From Leucoraja erinacea (Eukaryota), in contig NC_073387.1 in NCBI RefSeq assembly GCF_028641065.1, positions 38,130,001-38,194,000 of the forward strand: a stretch of DNA of 64,000 nt. The letters run 5' to 3'. A program made the translations under genes and the position numbers. Every line of letters starts with the position of its first letter. The stretch's first letter is position 1. Below, in pieces: positions 2,437 to 58,815 of this stretch. The notes beneath the pieces were generated by a model. The model was not told the origin of the DNA and did no database searches. It worked only from the letters and a program-made list of their open reading frames with translations.

Positions 2437-3240
2437 GACAAAGTGTTAGTCCCCTTGTCCTCACCTTCCACCCCATCAGCCGTCGCATACAGCATATAAT
2501 CCGCCAACATTTTCACCACCAACGGGATCCCACTACTGGCCACATCACCCCATCTTCACCACTTTCTGCTTTCCGCAGAGACCGTTGCCTCCGAAACGCC
2601 CTGGTCAACTCGTCCCTTCCGTCCCAAACCACCCCCTCCCCAGGTACTTTCCCCTGCAACCGCAGGAAATCCAACACCTGACCCTTTACCTCCCCCCTTG
2701 ACTCCATCTTAGGACCCAGTCTTTCCAGGTGGCAGAGGTTCATTTGCACCTCCTCCAACCTCATCTACTGTATCCGCTGTTCCAGGTTTCAACTTCTCTA
2801 TATCGGCGAGACCAAGCGCAGGCTCGGCGATCGTTTCACTGAACACCTCCGCTCAGTCCATCTTAACCTACCTGATCTCCCAATGTCTCAGCGCTTCAAC
2901 TCCCCCTCCCATTCCCAATCTGACCTTTCTGCCCAGTGCAAATTGGGGGAAATAGCACCACATATTTTACTATGGTAGTTTACACCCCAGTGGTATGAAC
3001 ATTGACTTCTCTAACTTCAGATAGCCCTTGCTTTCTCTCTCCATCCCCTTCCCAGTTCTCCCACCAGTCTTACTGTCTCCGACTACATTCTATGTTTATC
3101 CTGCCGTCTCCCCTGACATCACTGAAGAAGGGCCTCAACCCAAAAAGTCGCCCATTCCTTCTCTCCAAAGATGCTGCCTCACCCACTGAGTCACTCCTAC
3201 CTTTGATTTAAACCAGCATCTGCAGTTCTTTCTTACACAA
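2437..3240 (+). mobile_element. Penelope-like retroelement 3' fragment (GIY-YIG endonuclease region plus terminal repeat)
   Basis: About 2756-2860 translates NLIYCIRCSRFQLLYIGETKRRLGDRFTEHLRSV (GIY-YIG signature). Followed by the terminal repeat with a degenerate hammerhead core ctgaagaagggcctcaacccaaaaagtc at 3122. Confidence 0.85.
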
Positions 3241-3508
3241 AGTGTTAGAGGACCTCAGCAGGTCACACAATATCTGTGGAGGGAATGGATAGATGATGTT
3301 TGTCGGGTCAGGCCCCTTCTTCAGACTGATAGGAGTGAGTGGAGAAAGCTGGAAAAGATATGTGGGAGTGGGATAAAGCCTGGCAGTGATAGTGGTGGTG
3401 GGTGTAAGGGGGTGATTGACAGATGGGTGGATTATGTTGCAAAGGCCAGAGATGAAAAGGAGACTAAATAAGGTTAGTTAAAGAAAGAAGAGGAATGGAA
3501 TGTAAAGC
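3241..3508 (-). mobile_element. Inverted Penelope terminal repeat, interrupted by the element at 3509-6916 and resuming at about 6917-6960
   Basis: Reverse complement reads tcagtctgaagaaggggcctgacccgac...ccattccctcc, tail-to-tail with the preceding copy. The flanks tgtaaagc / cagagggtggga rejoin across the insertion. Confidence 0.7.
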
Positions 3509-7896: not shown

Positions 7897-8100
7897 ACAC
7901 ATAGTGCTGAAGTAACTCAGCATATCAGGCAGCTTCCCTACAGAACATGGATAGGTGATGTTTCAGGTCAAGATCCTTCATCAGACTACGTTTCGGGTAG
8001 AGACCCTTCTTCATGCTGAAGAAGAGTCTGGACCCAAAACGTCATCTATTCCTGTTCTCCAAAGATGCTGCCTGATTTGCTGAGCTTCCAGCACTTTGCA
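7897..8100. mobile_element. Palindromic (head-to-head) Penelope-derived terminal-repeat unit with three hammerhead-like cores
   Basis: Left arm is the reverse complement of the right arm. Minus-strand cores at about 7958-7984 and 7988-8013, plus-strand core ctgaagaagagtctggacccaaaacgtc at 8016. Confidence 0.75.
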
Positions 8101-8322: not shown

Positions 8323-9807
8323 CAGGCATGTGCTGTCAGGGTAGGCAAGGTAGGCACTGCCTACCCTGACTAAAATTATGACATGGTAATCATTAAATAT
8401 AAATAGTAAAGGCATGGGAGAATTATGCCTATCTAAGAGATCGATCTCTTCGGTAGGCATAATTCTCTGTGCCTTTCAACCGCAGCACTTGTAACATGTG
8501 AAGGTCTGTGCAGCCCACGTGCCATCCGCGCTGCTTGAAGCCGTCAATTTCAAGCGGAGCTGAAGGCAGCTGAAATTCTGCCTTTGCTGTACTGCTGCGC
8601 AGCAGCCTACTGCGCATGCGCAGCGCAAGTTTCTTGGCGGGTTTTTCAAATATGGATTGCCATTATCTGAAGGGTATGTTAGGAAGCAAAGAGAGAAGAA
8701 TGGAGTTTGTGTACCAATACCGTGGTAAGTACATTTCTTGGTACTTTATGGTTTTAAATACTGTATGTCCCGGGGTGGGGGTGAAGAGCCTCCTTTCACA
8801 GTGTTTGAGGAGTCTGGCCCGGGGTAAAGTTGTGGGGAAGGCAGGAGCGTTGTGAAGGAGGGGATCGGGACCAGTAACCCGCTTGCGACGCTCCGGGCAC
8901 GGAGCCACTGCATTGTGGCCGTGGAGTGAATTAGATCGGGTGGCTGCTGCAGCGCTCCGGGCACGGACAGCAGAACTGGCTGCCACTTCAGCCCCTTCTG
9001 CTGGTCCCCACTCACCTCTGGCAGTGCTCTCCGTCTCAACACCTCTCTCCTGCCGCTCGCCGGCCGGCTTCCCGCAAATCCTTAAATTCCAACAGCACGT
9101 TCAAGGGACCAATTGAGGTTACTCGGCTGTGGGAATTTAAGGATTTGCGGGAAGCAGCTGACATGAGTGAAGCCCGTAAGCGGCAGGTGAGAGGTGTTCA
9201 GTCGGAGAGCACTTCCAGAGGTGAGCGGGCCGGCAGAAGGCACTGAAGTGGCAGCCGGTTCTGCTGTCGGGTCCCGGCGGCCGCTCGCAGTCACCTGACC
9301 TGCTTCCTTCCCCGGAAGTGGCGGCCAGTTTTGCTGTCCGTGCCCGGAGCGCTGCGGCAACGGTGAATGAGTCTGTTATGATATCCGACCCCCTCCTTCT
9401 CAACATGCTGCCCTCCCCGCATCTTTAACCCCTGGCACAGACTCTCCACACGCTGTGAAAGGAACTCTCCCTCCAATTGGTCCCTTGAATTAGTAATAAT
9501 AATAATAAATACTTTATTGATCCCCTCAGGGAAATTCAGATGTCATGGTTTTGTCATTCAATAAACAGATTCAACGTCCTGGTGTGCTCCCGTTTTTCCC
9601 ACCATCTCTCCACCTGCCTTCATCCTCCGTCCCCCACCCATTCAGTAATTAAAAATGAAGGAAATTTAGAAGCCTTGGGCAAATTAAATTGCTACTTATT
9701 TTTATTTTTTTATTTTTAAGGAGAGAACAATCTGCGCATGCGCGGTTTAGGATTTTTTTTTTAAAGCCACCTGCCTACCTTGAGTAATTACTCACGGCAC
9801 GTGCCTG
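8323..9807. mobile_element. Non-autonomous hAT DNA transposon, 8-bp TSD AACCATGC
   Basis: TIR caggcatgtgctgtcag / reverse complement caggcacgtgccgtgag. Perfect aaccatgc at 8315-8322 and 9808-9815. CpG-rich interior. Confidence 0.9.
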
Positions 9808-39220: not shown

Positions 39221-40226
39221 ATACTAAGAATTTTAAAGGAAAAAAATGTGAAATTACAGGGAAAAGATAGATTATTGGGACTCACTGGATTACTCTTAAA
39301 TTGAACCATAACATACTCCACCAGCCAAAGTGCCTCTCACTAATGATGGTTTGCAACTAAACCTTTTGAACACTTGACCTCTTGGCACAATATGGCCACA
39401 AAACATAAGCAGGTGAAGGGGGTTGGAAAGCATTACACACAATTAAATACTCCAATGGACATGTGGTAAATCTAGTAATACTACAACCAGGTAGCCTCCA
39501 TGGGGCCATACAGGTGAAGCAAGATGGAAGAAACACACACGTCAGAAAACAGCTTTCAGTTTATATTGGCACGGATGAACAAATACCATTTTTTTTTTAA
39601 ACAGTACCAGTTAATCACTCTGTAGAACTGTAATTTAATATGTTGCAATTTGCTGGTAAATTGTATAAATTTCAGGATACAAAGTCAAAACATCAAATAA
39701 ACGGCTTAATAGCTTACTCAACAAACCTTGAACATTGTAACCTTCCCAGTGTTAAGCTAAACATAACATTAAATATGTTTTACTATACTGTAAACTATAC
39801 ATGAAAAATGGGGTTTACAGCATCTTTCGCTCAATGTGTCTTTTAAAAAGTGTGGTGATGACACACACACACACCCTTTAGGAGGCAGTAGCATAATGCT
39901 TTGTGGCCCTTGTTCAACTAAGCATTCAGAACATAGGTCATAGGCCAATGTTTTCTTTGCTACACAATCAGCAATGTTATGGTTACTTCAGCAGAATGTC
40001 CATGCAGAGGAAGACCAAGGAAAGCATGAACTTAAATGCTGGAGTTAATGATTAACTCTTGGCAAAACAGCAGAATATTTAGTTTATTCTATTGATAAGC
40101 AAGGTCTGTAACAATTTAAAATTCATGAGCTCAAGTTTTCCTTCAATAAAGCAATACTGATGAATGTAGGCTCACCATTTCAAAATATTTATTAAATGCC
40201 TAAAACCAGTCCTAAAATGAGCAATG

Positions 40227-40445
40227 TAGACACAAAGAACTACATATGCTGGTTAATACACAAAGGGACACAGAGTGTGGAATAACTCAGCAGGTCAGGC
40301 AACATCTCTGGAGAACATGGATAAGAGACGTTTCGGATCAAGACCAAACTTCAGATTCAACTGAAGAAGGGTCTCGACCGTCACCTATACATGCTCTTCA
40401 GGGATGCTGACTGACCTGCTGAGTTACTAGAGGACATTTTGTCAC
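40227..40445. mobile_element. Palindromic Penelope-derived terminal-repeat unit
   Basis: taactcagcaggtcaggcaacatc...gacgtttcgg...cttcag | ctgaagaagggtctcgacc...gatgctgactgacctgctgagtta. Confidence 0.75.
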
Positions 40446-41798
40446 TTTGCCTATTTGGAACAAATTTGGATAGCCACTCAAGCCAGTTTTGATATTGATG
40501 ACCACCACGGCAAAATTTGAATACCAATCCACTTTCCTTTGCTAACTGATCTTTGCCATCCAAATGAAGCTTTATTCTCAACATAAAATTGTAGCGTTTG
40601 CCTGTGCTGTAGTGGTTCTACAACTGATTTATAGCAGTGGCAACCATTTATATTGGTGTAACAAACTAAGTAGTTGAGAATAATAAATATCCACAGGGCT
40701 GCTCTTCAGGTTACCCTGCTGTAAAATTACAGAGAAGACTTGGAAATCATAATTCATTTTCACATAGAACTTCATCCTTTACATAAAAGTTGAAGTAGTC
40801 AAAGATAGGTTAACTACATTAAAATAACTCGCATATTTAATGTGATATCAAATAGAAATTTAAACTTACTACTAATATAGCGAGTCAGTCATGTACAATA
40901 TGGCATAGCACTCAAATAGTCAAACAGCATAAACAAACTGAACAAATGTACGTATACTCACCCATCCAAAGGTTTGGTATATTTAAGTAAAGTAATGTAT
41001 AGGGCATAAATCAATCATGGTATTTATAAGATTAGTAATCCATCAAATAACAAAATGAGCAACTTTCTCAGTAAACTAGTGGTCGATTGCACAAGTCACT
41101 AAAACCATGATACAAGGACAACGTATGCTCAAGGTTGCGAATCCTTGCTACACACACGCTAGGAACACCGAAAGGGCAAGTTAACGTAATTCCTTTGAAC
41201 ATTAAAAACTAGTTGAAGTGCAGAATCAGCAAACTCTATGGAATTAACAAAGTATTCAAACATTCAGGCGGAAGCAAATTTGGCAGGAGCTCTGGAGACA
41301 CTACGCGGGAAGCACGATAAAATTGCAGTCGTTTCTCCGGTCACTAAATGACAGATGCACAATAGGATACTTCTCTTTCGCAGCGCCAACGCGGAAAGTC
41401 AGGGAAGCGACGCAGGAACTCGGCTCCTTTGCGGAGTAATTAGCAATGTCATCTCGAGTGACGACGCTGCCGGAGCTCAACTCGCAAACCACCGAGCGGT
41501 GTTTCGCCAAGTTGGGAGACGACCCCCGGTTTAGACCGCTATCCTAACCCGGCGAGGGTTGTTTCAACACAGACAAGCGTCGCTTCACAACACTGCTCGG
41601 TTTATAGTTTAAATAAGTGGAAATACTTCTGGTCCACTTCACGAGGGGGGAAAAAGGGCCCAACAATACAAAAAGGCACAGCTGCCAGGAGGCGCTTGGA
41701 AGAGGAGGAAGCTGCGGGCAGCCGGACTCCACGCCCCGGGCAGGGCCGGGTGTTGCCCCCGAATCCCCGCCGCCCGCAACTGCCCTCACCCCGCTCAC

Positions 41799-47403: not shown

Positions 47404-47921
47404 TTTAACTTTGCTCCATGTCAAAAATGTTCCCCAACACCTTGGGTACACAAGGAAGCCATAAGTATACTGGTAGTTGTGGCGTGTGGCCATTGTTATG
47501 GAGGGTAGACTGGTACCCAGAACGATTAAGCAGATTGGTTACACCTAGTTTGGATCTATGAATGGCCACCTTGATCAGGCCCAGCTCAGACCTACCCAAC
47601 CACACCCCACTCTTTCAACACAGTGCAGCAGGTGACCAAAAGGTTAGGAGTGAAGTGTAAGGACAAATTGAGGACCATCCTCATCACTTATGAAACATTG
47701 ACTCCCTGTTTTTCTTCTCTATCAGGTTCCCTGAGACAACATGTTTTAGCTACCAATAGACAGTGGATATTGAAAAAAAGAACCTTGTAGTTATGTCATT
47801 CATTTAACATTATAGAGATCTCAAGATTGTGATATCCTTTGCTTTATCTGATCTTTGATTCTATCAATTATGCCCTTCATGATGCACTTTTGATGGATTT
47901 TCATATTGATTTTGCTTTATA

Positions 47922-49884
47922 CAGTGCCCTCCATAATGATTGGGACAAAGACCCATCAATTATTTATTTGCCCCTGTCCTCCACAATTTGAGATTTTTTA
48001 ATAGCAAATCACGTGGTTAAAGTGCACATTCTCAGATTTTAATAGAGGACATTTTTATACATTTTGGTTTCACCATGTAGAAATTACAGCAGTGTTTATA
48101 CATTGACTCCCTCCCATTTCAGGACACCATAATGTTTGGGACACAGCAATGTCATATAAATGAAAGTAGTGATGTTTAGTATTTTGTTGCATGTCCTTTG
48201 CATGCAATGACTGCTTCAAGTCTGCGATTCATGGACATCACCAGTTGTTGGGTGTCTTCTCTGGTGATGCTCTGCCAGGCCTGTATTGCAGCCATCTTTA
48301 GCTTATGCTTGTTTTGGGGGCTAGTCCCCTTCAGTTTTCTCTTCAGCATATAAAAGGCATGCTCAATTGGGTTCGGATCGGGTGATTCACTTGGCCACTA
48401 TCAAGAATTTATCATTTTTTAGATTTGAAAAACTCCTTTGTTGCTTTAGCAATATATTTGGGATCATTGTCTTGCTGTGGAATGGACTGCCAGCCATTGA
48501 GTTTTGAGGAATTTGTTTGAACTTGAGCAGATAGGATGTCTATACACTTCAGAATTCATTATGTTACTACCATCAGCAGTTGTATCATCAATGAAGATAA
48601 GCGAGCCAGTACCTTCAGCAGCCATACATGCCCAGGCCATTACACCCCCACCCCCATGTTTCATAGATGAGGTGGTATGCTTTGGATCTTGGGCAGTTCC
48701 TTCGCTCCTCCATACTCTGCTCTTGCCATCTGGTACAAGTTAATCTTCATCTCATCTGACTACAAGACCATTTCCCAGAACTGTGGTTGCTCTTTCAAGT
48801 ACTTTTTGGCAAACTGCAACCCGGCCATCCTATTTTTGCGGCTAACCAGTGGTTTGCATCTTGCAGTGTAGCCTCTGTATTTCTGTTCATGAAGGCTTCT
48901 GTGGACAGTGGTCAATGACAAAACCACACCTGACTCCTGAAGAGTGTTTCTGATCTGTCGGACAGGCGTTTGGGAATTTTTTCTATATTGTAGAAATAAT
49001 TTTTCTGTCATCAGCTGTGGAGGTCTTCCTTGGACTGCCAGTCCCTTTGTAATTAGTAAGCTCACCAGTGCTCTCTTTCTTCTTAATGATGTCCCAAACA
49101 GTTGATTTTGGTAAGCCTAAGGTTTGGCTGATGTCTCTAATGGGGCTGTCCCACTGTACGAGCTAATTCAAGAGTACTCCCAAGTGTCTCCTGAATCGAA
49201 CTCGGAAAATTACGGTAATAGCTGCTCGTAGGTACTCGGGGCTCTCGTGGACATTTTACAACACGTTGAAAAATCTTCACGAGTCTTTACGAGCTTACCG
49301 TGTTTCCCGAGTACCTGCCGTTAGCGTTACGAGCCGCTAAGGGACGTCCCGAGCTCCGACGTACCCGCTACATACATTCTACGTACTTACCACGAGTTTG
49401 ATTTTTTTAAACTCGGGAGAGCTCTTGAATTAGCTCGTACAGTGGGACAGGCCCTTAACAGCTTTCTTGTTTCAGTCTCATAATGGCTTCTTTGACTTTC
49501 ATTGGCACAACTTTGGTCCTCATGGTGATAAACAGCAATAAAAGTTTCCAAAGGTGATGAAAAGATTGGAGGAAACACTTGGTGCTGAGAGCTCTCTTAT
49601 ACCTGCATGAAGGAGGCAATTAAACACACCTGAGCAATTACAAACACCTGTGAAGCCATGTGTCCCAAACATTATTGTGTCCTGTAATGGGGGGGGGGGG
49701 GACTATGTATAAACACAGTTGTAATTTCTACATGGTGAAACCAAAATGTATAAAAAATACTCTTTTATGAAATCTGACAATGTGCTTTTTTTGTGATTTT
49801 TTTCTATTACAAATCACAAATTGGGAATACAGAGGCAAATAAATAAATGATGGGTCTTTGTCCCAAACATAATTGCGGGGACTG
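47922..49884 (-). mobile_element. Tc1-family DNA transposon (long TIRs), defective transposase, copy 1
   Basis: TA|cagtgccctccataat...ggggactg|TA, with TIRs of roughly 220 bp. Fragments [48 protein letters not shown]. Confidence 0.92.
49141..49455. mobile_element. PIF/Harbinger-type MITE nested in Tc1 copy 1, TSD TAA
   Basis: About 34-bp TIR with core ctgtcccactgtacgagctaattcaagag. taa on both sides. The empty site gatgtctctaacag is seen in Tc1 copy 2 (about 54006-54019). Confidence 0.9.
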
Positions 49885-50429
49885 TAGCTTAACTAAAGGC
49901 CATTGAGAGCAATATTCTACCTACTTCAATCCCGACATCGACATAAATGTTAGAAACATCTTCTTTGAATTTATTGCTTTTATTCTTTAACATACAAGCC
50001 ACGCATCAATTTAACCAAAGGAATTATTTATTTTAAAATGTCAGAAGTTGCCCAGTTCCACTTTTTAAAAAATGGTTACAAATATAATTTAAAAAACTCG
50101 TAATACGTGCGTACTTCGCATTGTCCTTGATTTAACAACATTGTTCTGCCAAGAGTGTTTGATTGTCATTTGTCCCAAATGGAACAATGAAATTCTTACT
50201 TGCAGCAGTACAACATAATATGTAAACATAATGCCCTGTAAACAATATAATAAACGAGAATAAATGCCTGGGTCATTTGACAGTAAAACACTCTTTAAAA
50301 GGCTAGAAAAACTCAAGCAACATCTGCAAAAAGCATTCTCGGCCTTTTATTTTTGCAGCATTTCCTATGTTTATTTTATTTCTCAGTCTAATATTTTTTC
50401 TCCACCCGGGTTAATGATTCAAGACCACA

Positions 50430-50929: not shown

Positions 50930-50995
50930 ATGGCGGCGCCTGGCAATGAAGAGGAACTAACGCAAGACCAGACAGAGAAACTGTTGCAGTTTCAG
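50930..50995 (+). CDS. FAF2: FAF2 (UBXD8) exon 1 (MAAPGNEEELTQDQTEKLLQFQ)
   Basis: Matches FAF2 N-terminus MAAPEE..LTQEQTEKLLQFQ. gtgaat donor. Confidence 0.95.
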
Positions 50996-52757
50996 GTGAA
51001 TTTGTTCATCTAACGTTATACTACTTAAAGTGACACGGGTTGCTTTTGCAGGCCACTTTTTAATTCATTTGTTAGCTTGATTTAATCTTGCCGAAACGTT
51101 GAAGTCTGCACCTGTGGCATTTTTCTGTACTGAACATTTTATGGTAAAGCCCCCCATATGACACGATTTATACCACCCTCATCAGTTTGTCAGTGGCAAA
51201 TTTAGTTCAAAGATCCTAAGCAATGGGAATAGGAGCATCTGAAAAAGTAGCATCAATTTATTTCACCATGAGTACTGAGTAAACATTACCTGGCAACAAA
51301 TGTTAACTGTAATCTATTCAACTTTTATTTTGCGGGACGATAATTGTCTAAAGACGATATTTCCGGACAATGAAAATCATCAAAGGTTCGTCATGGAGCT
51401 GATGCATAACTAGCACGCTGTGCGGTTCTTGTATTGCTACTATAACTTTAATTAAAAATTCTATACATATTCAAAAGCATTCAATTTAGTTCACAGTTTT
51501 AATACTTTTTGTATGTTTTAACCGGCATTTGAATGGAATGAATATGAGAATCAAGCTACAATCCCGGTATATTAAATATTGTTTTAATCTAATTTATTTT
51601 GAACAGTAATACTCATTGGGGATGCCCTGAAAGCAAAAATATTACATGAAGGAGCACTTCAGAAGTGTTTATGGAATTAGTTGGTAAAGCAGATTAAATT
51701 ACATTATGGGGGACTTCAATTGCCTAGGTTTGTATCCAGATCTTAAGTAGTGCTGTGGAAAATCTCATTTGATCTTGTGCATCAAAAAGTGAGAGTCGTG
51801 GATTGCCAATGTAACTGCAGAAGGAGATTTCCGTTACTGGTGGAGGGAATGGTTATGGAGACAGGGCTGTTTTCTGTATATCTTAGGAGAGCACGAAAAT
51901 AATAAGACAATTCTGATAATGTATCAATGTTTCTAAACTGCCAATTGTAAAATATCTTAAGTTTTAATCTTAACGTACATGACACATTCAATGTTCATGT
52001 AGGATAAATAACAGTATTTTCACTTTAAGATGCCCTAATGTAGACGGAAAATATGGGTCTCAACTAAGTGCCAAAAAGGGTGCTTTCTTTTCTCCAGAGA
52101 TACTGCCTGACCCACTGAGTTACTCCAGAATTGTGTGTCTCTTCAGTGTAAACCAGCATCTGCAGTTCCTTCCTACACAAAACATTTAACACTAGTGTTC
52201 ACCAGTTTAAAATTGTGGAAGCTTGGCTACACAGGTAACTTAACAAACAAGTAACCAAAATCTTGGTTAGAGTTAGTTTTCAAGGAGCTTGATGAACCAG
52301 AATTTATGAGGAGGAAGAGGGGAAAGTGAATTTCAGAATTTGGGGTCAATGGCTAAGTGTTAGCTAAGTGTAGCCATTGGTAACAGAGCAGGATTGAAAT
52401 GTGACTGCACAAGATGCTAGAAATGGAGGAGCACATATCTTTAAGCCTTGCAAGGTTGGAGGAGATTAGAGGTCGAAAGTTGCAAGCAAGATTTTAAATT
52501 CAGCTATTGTCTCGAAACATGAGTACAGTAGTCAGCACAAGAGTGAAAGGTGAATAAGTCCAGGTCAAGTTAAGGTATTAATTAACAGCAGTCTTTTAGT
52601 TAATTTAAGATTTTTTTAGAATTAAACCAGAGGTTGGCCAGCAAATCATAAGGGTAACAATAACACAGATAAGTTCTTCTGCAGTGGATGAGTTGAGGTA
52701 AAGTAACAATTGACTATGCCAAGGAGGTGGGTAGAGCTAATTTTGGTCTTGTAGTTA

Positions 52758-54460
52758 TAGTGCCCTCCATAATGTTTCTGACAAAGACCCATCATTTATA
52801 TATTTGTCTCTGTACTCCACAATTTGAGATTTGTAATAGAAAAAAAATCACATGTGGCTAAGTGCACATTGTCAGATTTTAATAAAGGCCATTTTTACAC
52901 ATTTTGGTTTCACCATGTAGAAATTACAGCAGTGTTTACACATCCCAACCCCCCCCCCCCCCCCCCCCCCACCCCATTTCAGGGCACCATAATGTTCGGG
53001 ACACAGCAATGTCATGTAAATGAAAGTACCCGGTAGTCATGTTTAGTATTTTGTTGCACATCCCTTTGCATGCAATGACTGCTTGAAGTCTGCGATTCAT
53101 GCACATCACCAGTTGCTGTGCTTCTTCTCTGGTGATGTTCTGCCAGGCATGTATTGCAGCCATCTTTAGCTTATGCTTGTTTTGGGCGCTAGTCCCCTTC
53201 AGTTTTCTCTTCAGCATATAAAAGGCATGCTCATTGAGTTCAGATCAGGTGATTGACTTGGCCACTCAAGAATTGACCATTGTTTAGCTTTGAAAAACTC
53301 ATTTGTTGCTTTAGCAGTATGTTTGGGATCATTGTCATGCTGTAGAATGAACCGCCGGACAAGTAGGTTTTGAGGCATTTGGTGAACTTGAGCAGGTAGG
53401 ATATGTCTATACACTTCAGAATTCATTATGCTACTACCCTCAGCAGTTGTATCATCAATGAAGATAAGTGAGCCAGTACCTTCAGCAGCATACCCAGGCC
53501 ATAGCACCCCCCACCATCGTGTTTCACAGATGAGATGGTATGCTTTGGATCTTGGGCAGTTCTTTCTCTCCTCCATACTTTGCTCTTGCCATCACTCTGA
53601 CATAAGTTATTCTTTGTCTCATCTGTCCACAAGACCTTTTTCCAGAACTGTGGCTGCTCTTTTAAGTACGTTTTGGCAGACTGTATCCTGGCCATCCTAT
53701 TTTTGCAGCTAACCAGTGGTTTGCATCTTGCAGTGTAGCCTCTATATCTGTTCATGAAGTCTTCTGCAGACACTGGTCATTGACAAATCCACACCTGAAG
53801 AGTGTTTCTGATCTGTCGGACAGGTGTTTGGGGATTTTTCTTTATTATGGAGAGAATTCTTCTGTCATCAGCTGTGGGTGGTCTTCCTTGGCCTGCCAGT
53901 CCCATTATTTTAGTAAGTTTTAGTAAGCTTAGTAAGCTCACCAGTGCTCGCTTTCTTCTTAATGATGTCCCAAACAGATGATTTGGGGAAGCCTAAGGTT
54001 TGCCTGATGTCTCTAACAGTTTTATTCTTGTTTCTTAGTCTTGTAATGGCGTATTTGACGTTCATTGCCACAACTTTGGTCCTCATGATGATAAACAGCA
54101 ATAAAAGTTTCCAAAAGTGATGGAAAGACTGGAGGAAAGACTAGGTGCTGAGAGCTCTCTTATACCTGCATGTAGGATGCAATTAAACACACCTGAGCAA
54201 TTACAAACACATGTGAAGCCATGTGTCCCAAACATTATGGTGCCCTGAAATATGGGGGGGGGGGGGGGGGGAGACTATATATAAACATAGCTCTAATTTC
54301 TACATGGTGAAACCGAAATGTATAAAAATATCCTTTAATAAAATCTGCACGTGTACTTTAACCACCAGTGATTTTTTTCTATTACAAATCTCAAATTGTG
54401 GAGTACAGAGGCAAATAAATAAATGATGGGTCTTTGTCCCAAATGTTATTGAGGGCACTG
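52758..54460 (-). mobile_element. Tc1-family DNA transposon, defective, copy 2
   Basis: TA|tagtgccctccataat...gagggcactg|TA. Catalytic-region motifs VLWTDETK, QHDNDPKH, WPSQSPDLN, split by frameshifts. Confidence 0.93.
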
Positions 54461-54599
54461 TAAGTGGTTGCAAGTTCAACTGTATATGCTTGAACTACAA
54501 ACAAGGCCAGTGTTGCAAATGGTCTTGCCTAATTTCAGATAGTTGCTAGTGAGAGGAAAGTTAAAGGGTCAGGAATTAGAATCTCCACTAAACACTCTT

Positions 54600-56200: not shown

Positions 56201-56546
56201 GAAAATGTTTGTAGTAAAGTCAGAGGGTTTGATTTTTCCTTGTTTAATTGGCAGAAACATCTCTTTATCCAAACTGTCTATTGGATAAGCAGTGGGACTA
56301 ATTAGGGACAACTAAATTAATGATATTAAATAGTTCAGTGAATCAAAGAAGGAACAGAAGATGACTTTTGGATGCAAATAAGAGTTTGCAAGAATAATGT
56401 TTCAAAGAACCAACATAATTAACAATATCAATAACTTGACGAATTGGAGCATATACCGTCCCATTGAAAAATGGAATTGAATGCAATGTTACTATCTGTG
56501 CTGTTTCAATTTAACCTTTTTTTCCTTACGACTTTTTTCATTATAG

Positions 56547-56615
56547 GACTTGACTGGTATTGATTCAATGGACCAATGTCGACGCACACTGGAACAGCAT
56601 CATTGGAATATTGAG
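56547..56615 (+). CDS. FAF2: FAF2 exon 2 (DLTGIDSMDQCRRTLEQHHWNIE; UBA-like domain)
   Basis: ttatag acceptor and gtaaaa donor, 69 nt. Confidence 0.95.
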
Positions 56616-56912: not shown

Positions 56913-57047
56913 GCAGCTGTTCAGGATAGGCTAAATGAGCAAGAAGGAGTTCCCAGTGTCTTCAATCCACCTTCTTCTCGTCCGCTTCAGGTCCACACAG
57001 CTGACCACAGGGTGTATAGTTATGTAGTTTCAAGGCCACAGCCCAGG
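56913..57047 (+). CDS. FAF2: FAF2 exon 3 (AAVQDRLNEQEGVPSVFNPP...YSYVVSRPQPR)
   Basis: ttttctag acceptor and gtgagt donor, 135 nt. Confidence 0.95.
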
Positions 57048-58113
57048 GTGAGTACATTTTAGTTATTTGATTATTTTAGTTCTATTTAATAATAATCATT
57101 CGATTGAAATTGTATATCAGTTATGTGTTGAGTTTATAATTAAATTTGATTTATTTTGCCGACGGTGCTTGTCCTGTAATCCCATGTTACTAAAATGATG
57201 GATTATTCCTTTTGGTAGTTGAAGATGCATTGAATGTTAATGCTATCTTGTGAACAGCTCATATCTTATTTCTTTGAGTTCTCGTTCAAAGAAATGCTTG
57301 GGAGCGATAGACTAGTAAATTTAACATCTGTGGTAGGAAAGCCATTTTAAGAGAATTTTGAGGGATAAGCTATACATTTGTATACATTCCAGAACCAGGG
57401 GCCACAGTTTAAGAATCCAGAAGCAGGGGCCACAGTTTAAGAATCCAGAACCAGGGACCACAGTTTAAGAATAAGGAGTAAGCCATTTAGAACGGAGACG
57501 AGGAAACACTTTTCCCCCACAGAGAGTGGTGAGTCTGGAATTCTCTGCCTCAGAGGTTGGCGGGTTCTCTGGATGCTTTCAAGAGAGAGTTAGATACGGC
57601 TCTTAAAAATAGCGGAGTCGGTGGATATGGGGAGAAGGCAGGAACGGGTTGCTGATTGGGGATGATCAGCCATGATCACATTGAATGGCGGTGCTGGCTC
57701 GAAGGGCCGAATGGCCTACTCCTGCATCTATTGTTTCGGAAGACCAGTTGAATATGAATAGTCAACATGGTTTTATGTCTGAAGTTATCTTAAGAATTTG
57801 ATTATTTTTAAAGAAGTAAAATGGAAAGTTGATGAAGAGGACTGTGGATGCAGTGTATACAAACTCGAGCAAGGCCTTTGATAGCATTCTGCATAGTAGG
57901 CTGCTCTAGAATGTTAATCACATGAGATCCAGGGAGGGCTAGTTAACTAGATGGCATCAAGGTAGGAAACAGAGGGTAGTTGTAGAAGATTACTTTTCAG
58001 AATAGTTGCCTGTGATGAGTCATGTGCCTCGGGGATTAGGGCTAAGCCCATAGCTGTTTGTCATCTCTAGCAATGATTTGGATGGGAATGTAGAAGGCAT
58101 GATTAGTAAATTG

Positions 58114-58815
58114 GAGACACACGGAATGCAGATGCTGAAATCTTGAGCAAAACACAATGCTGGCTGATCATTCTCTGGAGGGAATGGATGGGGACCTCTT
58201 GGGTTGGGACCCTTTGTCAGGCTGATGGTAGGAGGGTGGAGATAGCTGTAAAAGAGTTGGGAGCAAGATAAAAGTTAGACAAAAAATGCTGGAGAAACTC
58301 AGCGGATGAGACAGTATCAATGGAGAGAAGGATTTGGCGAAGTTTCGTATCGATGCCCCTCTTCAGATTGAATTGGAGCATATACCGTGCCATTGAAAAT
58401 CTGAAGAAGGGTCTCGACCCGAAACGTTGCCAATTCCTTCTCTCCATAGATGCTGCCTCACCCACTGATTCTCCAGCATTTTAATTTTTCCAGTATCTGC
58501 AGTTCTTTCTTAAACACGGGTGCAAGTTAAAGCCTGGCAAGTGAGAGGGGGTGCATTTGAATGACAGATGGGTGGAGAAAATGGCAACGGCTAGATATGA
58601 AAAGGAAAGAAAACAGTGGCAGATAAGAAGAGAAGAAATATGAAGCTAGAGGGAGGCATATATCACGAGGTGGATGTTGTGGGTGGAGGAGGGGTGGGAA
58701 TGTGGAAGAAATGGGTGTACACTGGTGTGGAGAGGAGGCACAGGAAAGAGGAGGGGGAAGGGTGGTTTATTTAAAATTGGAGAATTCAGTGTTCATACCG
58801 TTGGGTTGTAAACTT
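58114..58815 (-). mobile_element. Penelope terminal-repeat fragment with a nested palindromic unit (about 58276-58517)
   Basis: The outer copy parallels 3241-3508. The inner palindrome is flanked by the imperfect direct repeats gggagcaagataaaag / gggtgcaagttaaag. Confidence 0.7.
58401..58428 (+). ncRNA. Minimal type I hammerhead ribozyme core (best-preserved copy)
   Basis: CUGAAGA-A-GGGUC-UC-GACCC-GAAAC-GUU: catalytic boxes CUGANGA and GAAA, helix II, very short palindromic helix III, NUH triplet. Helix I is not clearly formed in this copy. Confidence 0.65.

What the first reader, a model, noticed from the sequence alone, without database searches (positions are those of the whole stretch)
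58276..58517. Palindromic hammerhead unit holding a 30-nt copy of nearby host intron at its centre
Seen: two Penelope-type terminal repeats sit head-to-head. The spacer between their cores (58370-58399, gaattggagcatataccgtgccattgaaaa) is 29/30 identical to FAF2 intron 1 sequence at 56441-56470, 1.9 kb upstream and in the same orientation. The plus-strand hammerhead core begins 1 nt after the copied piece. Inference: template switching onto local DNA or the host pre-mRNA during insertion, or a templated repair insertion. This would be a route by which these palindromes acquire locus-specific loops.
Basis: partly seen in the sequence, partly recalled or inferred. Interest (0 to 1): 0.7.

Follow-up and report, generated by a model that had tools for sequence, protein, structure and literature searches.

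The report
Penelope palindromes patched with nearby DNA
A mirror-image jumping-gene insertion in the FAF2 gene carries at its centre a 30-letter copy of intron DNA from 1.9 kb away, and 8 of 140 similar insertions checked in the same genome also match DNA within 3.5 kb, so this is a rare but recurring patch that was likely copied in while the two halves were being joined.

Summary
Confirmed. 58370-58399 matches FAF2 intron 1 (56441-56470) at 29/30, and these are the only two hits in the 2.19-Gb genome. The palindrome is one Penelope-like insertion: two head-to-head terminal repeats, a tail on one arm and a 15-16-nt target duplication, inside an older element in intron 3. The spacer matched its own ±5 kb better than any other locus in 16 (about 1 expected); 8 did so clearly (0.05 expected), 5 of them with non-element donors. 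Donors lie 0.2-3.5 kb away, in both orientations; 0 of 20 tested had a clear donor at 5-15 kb. Spacer-donor divergence roughly tracks arm-arm divergence, so copying likely happened at insertion. Local copying is a minor route: most centres are direct joins, element pieces or one propagated family. DNA versus pre-mRNA template is unresolved. The hammerhead looks inactive. The scan noted single cases in three other genomes; this adds a count with a control. L1 templated insertions are the known parallel.

The parts
56441..56470 (+). Donor: unique sequence in FAF2 intron 1, 76 nt upstream of exon 2
   Evidence: contigs of four organisms (A-D) run through it with no difference listed inside it (table cut, 64 rows not shown)
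56547..56615 (+). FAF2 exon 2 (UBA-like)
   Evidence: AG/GT ends and translation; Pfam UBA_8
56913..57047 (+). FAF2 exon 3 (end approximate)
   Evidence: translation
58111..58274 (-). Left part of an older Penelope-derived element, the insertion target
   Evidence: self-blast; aligns to the uninterrupted copy at 3270-3465
58259..58274 (+). Target-site duplication, left copy
   Evidence: 12/14 identical to the right copy; present once in the uninterrupted copy
58276..58369 (-). Left arm: short terminal-repeat copy without tail; decayed hammerhead at 58340-58366
   Evidence: 13 of 91 letters differ from the nearest copy found
58370..58397 (+). Spacer: 28-nt templated filler copied from intron 1 (match runs on to 58399, overlapping the arm by 2 nt)
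58398..58517 (+). Right arm: terminal-repeat copy with the ~35-nt tail (about 58483-58517) and small deletions
58401..58430 (+). Minimal hammerhead motif (core boxes and helix II intact, helix I not formable)
   Evidence: motif scan; no Rfam hammerhead hit; folding
58518..58532 (+). Target-site duplication, right copy, followed by the rest of the older element

Best explanation
This is a single Penelope-like insertion of two head-to-head terminal repeats flanked by a 15-16-nt target duplication, with a 28-nt centre that copies FAF2 intron 1 DNA 1.9 kb away, likely copied in while the two cDNA ends were joined at the time of insertion. Inferred steps: (1) the element's endonuclease nicks both strands about 15 nt apart; (2) each 3' end primes reverse transcription, one at the inner and one at the outer (tail) start site, giving a short arm and a tailed arm; (3) both cDNAs end near the start of the terminal repeat, where the self-complementary TCAG.CTGA normally lets them anneal directly; (4) occasionally one end first pairs by a few letters with nearby chromosomal DNA, is extended by 20-75 nt (by polymerase theta or the element's own RT), releases, and is then joined to the other end. 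The product is a dead scar that would fold as a long hairpin in the pre-mRNA.
For: Single event: the target duplication is 12/14 identical and occurs once in an uninterrupted copy. Across loci, 26 of 94 palindromes with both ends recognisable have a duplication scoring 10 or more (0 of 300 shuffled pairs), and 25 of those 26 carry the tail on one arm only. Default join: 1125 palindromes have 0-19 nt between the cores, and 19 of the 50 listed are the direct CAG-A/T-CTG join. Recurrence: own-locus match ranks first in 16 of 140 (p 8e-15); margin of 12 or more in 8 of 140 versus 0.05 expected. Proximity: donors at 234-3529 nt, and 0 of 20 clear at 5-15 kb. Priming from the arm end: in L148 the donor continues into 8 nt identical to the arm end (perfect 14-nt duplication, 0 of 95 arm mismatches); in L018 the donor shares 6 of 7 nt with the arm end; L146 has a 12-nt arm-like stretch beside the donor. 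Timing: spacer-donor divergence equals or exceeds arm-arm divergence in 6 of 10 other cases, and none but L018 is significantly lower. A purified Penelope protein cleaves and extends both strands and has two RT start sites that define the tail (PMC11167929).
Against: At this locus the junction homology is only 2-3 nt, so neither the priming arm nor the template strand can be read. The spacer is closer to its donor (1 of 28) than the arms are to each other (13 of 85; P 0.058), which leans towards a later event, though the locus was picked because the match is so good. Three of the 8 clear cases have donors that are old element copies (L052, L062, L139) and could be element-derived. L018 has unlike arms and no clear duplication. 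Fold-back self-priming would give the same anatomy. Some young palindromes with a duplication have unique spacers with no donor found in the assembly (L128).
Confidence: 0.62

Rival explanations
1. The element's RT jumped from element RNA onto the FAF2 pre-mRNA (or the intron 1 lariat), copied 28 nt and was then joined.
For: The copy has the sense orientation of FAF2 and lies in the same transcription unit. The right-arm cDNA end could pair with the RNA by 2-3 nt. L1 insertions made from two RNAs are described (PMC11702581 passages).
Against: Orientation cannot decide this, because either arm may prime. Other donors occur on both sides and both strands and fall off within about 3.5 kb. No spliced or distant exonic donor was found: of 5 spacers searched genome-wide, 4 hit only themselves and 1 hit a paralogous locus. 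Host gene orientation at the other loci was not determined.
Confidence: 0.14
2. The palindrome inserted with a direct join, was later cut at its hairpin or cruciform tip, and was repaired with a templated insertion (centre-break type repair; mechanism recalled, search listing only).
For: Spacer-donor 1 of 28 versus arm-arm 13 of 85 (P 0.058), and L018 is similar (P 0.022). A break at the tip would leave the same arm ends and the same microhomologies.
Against: In the other 9 cases the spacer is not significantly younger than the arms. A palindrome with identical arms (L148) already has its filler. Arms of about 95 nt are short.
Confidence: 0.13
3. One cDNA jumped to local DNA, then folded back and copied itself to make the second arm (self-priming, as proposed for rotifer Penelope palindromes).
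For: Self-priming is proposed in PMC3846280 (passages). Both arms here share the same variant at the arm end (only 4 such exact loci).
Against: In vitro both strands are nicked and extended (PMC11167929). A precise one-sided tail plus duplication follows simply from two start sites. Not separable with these data.
Confidence: 0.09
4. Chance match, dispersed repeat, or host DNA left in place between two independent insertions.
For: The in-place class exists. L154 has a paralogue 212 kb away with only one arm, and several spacers share 11-17 nt with an outer flank, as a solo-arm duplication would.
Against: Two hits genome-wide. The duplication flanks the whole unit, and the target element has no such sequence.
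Confidence: 0.02

Closest known systems
EN+ Penelope-like insertions with inverted pLTRs, one-sided tail and TSD (PMC3846280, PMC8557442 passages; PMC11167929 main text)
   Same: Head-to-head terminal repeats, a 30-40-nt tail on one end, a target duplication, a minimal hammerhead in the repeat, and a GIY-YIG frame upstream of the same repeat in longer copies.
   Different: No ORF between the arms. The passages read describe host DNA captured between pLTRs (0.9-1.5 kb spacers, a whole gene in trans), but not short fillers copied from within a few kb of the insertion site.
L1 templated insertions and twin-priming inversion junctions (bioRxiv 10.1101/2024.08.27.596794 and PMC11702581, passages)
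   Same: [quoted passage not shown]
   Different: L1 templates are typically within 15 bp of the site. Here they are 0.2-3.5 kb away and sit at the cDNA-cDNA seam. The supplementary figures on L1 template positions were not seen.
Polymerase theta templated insertions at repaired breaks (recalled; search listing only)
   Same: Short microhomology priming; patchwork repeats of the copied piece (L148); fillers copied from the ends themselves.
   Different: The enzyme is not identifiable from sequence; the element's RT could do the same.
Minimal hammerhead of metazoan PLEs (PMC4209133, parts 1-2 of 4)
   Same: Core boxes, extra base before helix II, G-C closing pair and palindromic CG in the plus arm; pairs of motifs on opposite strands are mentioned.
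   Different: Helix I cannot form here and the left copy is broken.

Membership tests
EN+ Penelope-like element (terminal-repeat insertion) | Repeat lies downstream of a C-terminal GIY-YIG frame in longer copies | tested here: met
   13 matches to the endonuclease end motif, most followed within ~250 nt by this repeat family; Pfam GIY-YIG E 0.001-0.003, below the curated cut-off
EN+ Penelope-like element (terminal-repeat insertion) | Telomerase-like RT in the same ORF | not tested
   No full-length copy was examined; this insertion has no ORF
EN+ Penelope-like element (terminal-repeat insertion) | Inverted pLTR with a 30-40-nt tail at one end | tested here: met
   Right arm tailed, left arm not; one-sided in 74 of 94
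EN+ Penelope-like element (terminal-repeat insertion) | Target-site duplication | tested here: met
Minimal hammerhead ribozyme | Core boxes, helix II, palindromic CG, NUH site | tested here: met
   Plus arm 58401-58430 by inspection; the left arm has lost helix II
Minimal hammerhead ribozyme | Helix I and an accessible active fold | tested here: not met
   Opening the core costs about 26 kcal/mol against the long hairpin; no Rfam hit
Minimal hammerhead ribozyme | Self-cleavage | not testable with these tools
   Needs an in vitro assay
Templated insertion at a retrotransposon junction | Insert is a unique copy of DNA near the site | tested here: met
   recurrence
Templated insertion at a retrotransposon junction | Microhomology at the junctions | tested here: inconclusive
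   2-3 nt here; 7-8 nt in L018 and L148
RT template switch onto host RNA | Donor limited to transcribed sense strand or spliced | tested here: inconclusive
   Compatible here; host genes at other loci not determined; no spliced donor found

The most novel reading that the evidence does not exclude
Penelope's own dimeric RT makes both arms from its two start sites and, when the cDNA ends fail to anneal, jumps to chromosomal DNA or nascent host RNA up to a few kb away. The thousands of palindrome seams in such genomes would then be a readable record of the unknown joining step of Penelope transposition, including long fillers with no genomic source and captured loops that later spread as new families.
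Probability: 0.2. Interest if true: 0.7.

Novelty: new variant of a known kind. Interest (0 to 1): 0.42.

Why it matters
How Penelope-like elements form head-to-head repeats and finish integration is described as unresolved in the papers read (PMC8557442, PMC11167929). This genome holds well over a thousand such palindromes. Their seams show direct microhomology joins, element-derived patches and, in a few percent of longer non-family spacers, copies of DNA 0.2-3.5 kb away. That turns a one-off oddity into a measured class with a control, and gives predictions for the existing in vitro system. My paper searches found no report of this for Penelope elements; the library lacks most subscription papers. 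The locus itself is most likely a neutral scar.

Tried and rejected
Rfam found no hammerhead at gathering score or at E up to 10; the miRNA-family hits reflect only the long hairpin. Dating the spacer by related organisms failed: the narrow lay covered nothing of the centre in 3 runs and 34 nt of one arm in the fourth, which is no evidence either way; the wide lay was swamped by repeats at the centre. Genome-wide donor searches for 5 long spacers: 4 found only themselves. The one extra hit, 212 kb away, is a paralogous locus carrying one arm, not a donor. Extending 20 orphan spacers to 5-15 kb gave 0 clear donors and 1 borderline (L152, 40 versus 33). Eight of the 16 first-ranked cases were set aside as a solo-arm duplication (L157), a tandem arm copy (L041), element or repeat sequence (L035, L122) or marginal (L072, L075, L095, L140). 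A 6-nt likeness between the spacer start and the target duplication was judged chance. Reading the direction of copying from microhomology suggested synthesis towards the break in five cases, but three assignments are ambiguous, so it was not used.

Full report
Observation. The 30-nt direct repeat (56441-56470 / 58370-58399, 29/30) and the inverted arms (76 nt, 80% complementary) are as described. The 30-mer has exactly two hits in the 2.19-Gb own genome at up to 2 mismatches. The donor is 76 nt upstream of exon 2 of the host gene; the palindrome is in intron 3. The name FAF2 rests on Pfam UBA and FAF1 hits plus recalled exon sequences.

Anatomy. The unit is a short left arm (58276-58369), a 28-nt spacer, and a right arm with an extra ~35-nt tail (58398-58517). 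It interrupts an older Penelope-derived element. A 15-16-nt piece is present on both sides (12/14 identical) but once in an uninterrupted copy at 3270-3465, so it is a target duplication around the whole unit. The same repeat follows a GIY-YIG-like frame in longer copies (Pfam below cut-off). Contigs of organisms B, C and D reach into the right arm's tail, and one of C spans the left junction, so the insertion predates their split. The centre was not covered. The plus-strand hammerhead keeps its core boxes and helix II but cannot form helix I. The RNA is predicted to fold as one long hairpin (-120 kcal/mol, z -11), and opening the core costs about 26 kcal/mol. Rfam finds no hammerhead.

What palindrome centres usually are. 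Exact-match patterns found 1125 palindromes with 0-19 nt between the cores; 19 of the 50 listed are a direct join at the self-complementary arm end. Of 599 with 20-45 nt, 27 of the 50 listed share one spacer, an amplified composite family. The rest are heterogeneous.

I fetched ±5 kb around 140 non-family palindromes: 79 of the 100 listed (112 found), 1, and 60 of the 80. The 41 left out were dropped by eye as element-only or duplicates, which inflates the rates below. Each spacer was aligned to its own locus (spacer masked) and to the 140 others. The own locus ranked first in 16 of 140 (about 1 expected, p 8e-15). A margin of 12 score points or more was reached in 8 of 140, against 7 of 19,600 foreign pairs (0.05 expected). 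Five of the 8 have non-element donors (L018, L046, L136, L146, L148). Three donors are old element copies (L052, L062, L139) and may be element-derived. Donors are 234-3529 nt away; 2 are direct and 6 inverted; 5 lie to the right and 3 to the left of loci whose orientation is arbitrary. Sixty-seven of 140 spacers are repeat-like. Among the 73 others, 7 have a local donor. Twenty orphans extended to 5-15 kb gave no clear donor. Five long spacers searched genome-wide gave no donor; one hit was a paralogue showing host DNA trapped between two separate insertions.

Mechanism. Shown: single insertion, one-sided tail (74 of 94; 25 of 26 with a clear duplication, null 0 of 300; 47 of 141 had unrecognisable ends), local copying above chance, and 7-8 nt of homology between donor and arm end in L018 and L148. 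From the literature: a purified Penelope protein cleaves and extends both strands and starts at two sites that define the tail, and hammerhead cleavage is not needed in vitro (PMC11167929, parts 1-2 of 4). Inferred: two cDNA ends meet at the repeat start, usually anneal directly, and sometimes one first primes on nearby DNA. On timing, spacer-donor divergence equals or exceeds arm-arm divergence in 6 of 10 other cases and is significantly lower only in L018. Here it is 1 of 28 against 13 of 85 (P 0.058), so later repair is not excluded. On template, the junction homology here is 2-3 nt, either arm could have primed, and orientation cannot separate DNA from pre-mRNA.

Comparison with what is known. 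Inverted pLTRs, tails, duplications and captured host spacers are described for Penelope elements (PMC3846280 and PMC8557442, passages), and minimal hammerheads on opposite strands in PMC4209133 (parts 1-2 of 4). L1 has templated insertions, typically from within 15 bp of the site (bioRxiv 10.1101/2024.08.27.596794, passages; PMC11702581, passages); their supplementary figures were not seen and may include more distant templates. Polymerase theta and centre-break repair are recalled, with search listings only. Searches found no report of kilobase-range local fillers in Penelope palindromes. The scan's own notes list three single cases in other genomes; I did not check those loci, and they are not independent support.

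Verdict. Real, recurrent at a few percent of longer non-family spacers and far less of all palindromes, and a variant of known junction filling. The locus is likely a neutral scar; the value is the counted class as a handle on Penelope end-joining. Interest 0.42.

Noticed in passing
L004, L007, L010-L014 (G000): One fixed ~38-nt spacer is shared by 27 of the 50 listed palindromes, with modified arms and shared flanks: an amplified composite element built around a Penelope palindrome, probably hundreds of copies.
   Followed up: partly
L128:5014-5072: Young palindrome with a perfect 15-nt duplication and a 59-nt unique spacer that has no donor anywhere in the assembly. L147, L133 and L149 spacers also have none; L133 may be host DNA in place.
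   Followed up: partly
L154 and L160: Paralogous loci 212 kb apart, one with a solo arm and one with a second arm added: some apparent palindromes are two separate insertions enclosing host DNA.
   Followed up: yes
L148:5014-5077: Filler is a patchwork: 24 nt copied from 1 kb away plus repeated bits of itself, as in iterative priming.
   Followed up: partly
window 58370-58376 and 58430-58436: The first 7 nt of the spacer are complementary to the right arm just past the cleavage site, so the donor shares a 7-mer with the element subfamily; probably chance.
   Followed up: no
window 8791-9463: A 670-nt G+C-rich imperfect palindrome (about 70%) with internal inverted segments, unlike the Penelope repeat; perhaps a miniature DNA transposon.
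   Followed up: no
window 47920-49886 and 52753-54462: Two ~1.7-kb elements with ~230-nt terminal inverted repeats (Tc1/mariner-like ends, recalled) flank exon 1 of the host gene at 50975.
   Followed up: no
window 7900-8100, 40220-40455, 3122-3325: Further head-to-head or tail-to-tail Penelope repeat pairs with little or no spacer.
   Followed up: no
window 57388-57472: Three tandem 28-nt copies inside a LINE-like fragment in intron 3.
   Followed up: no
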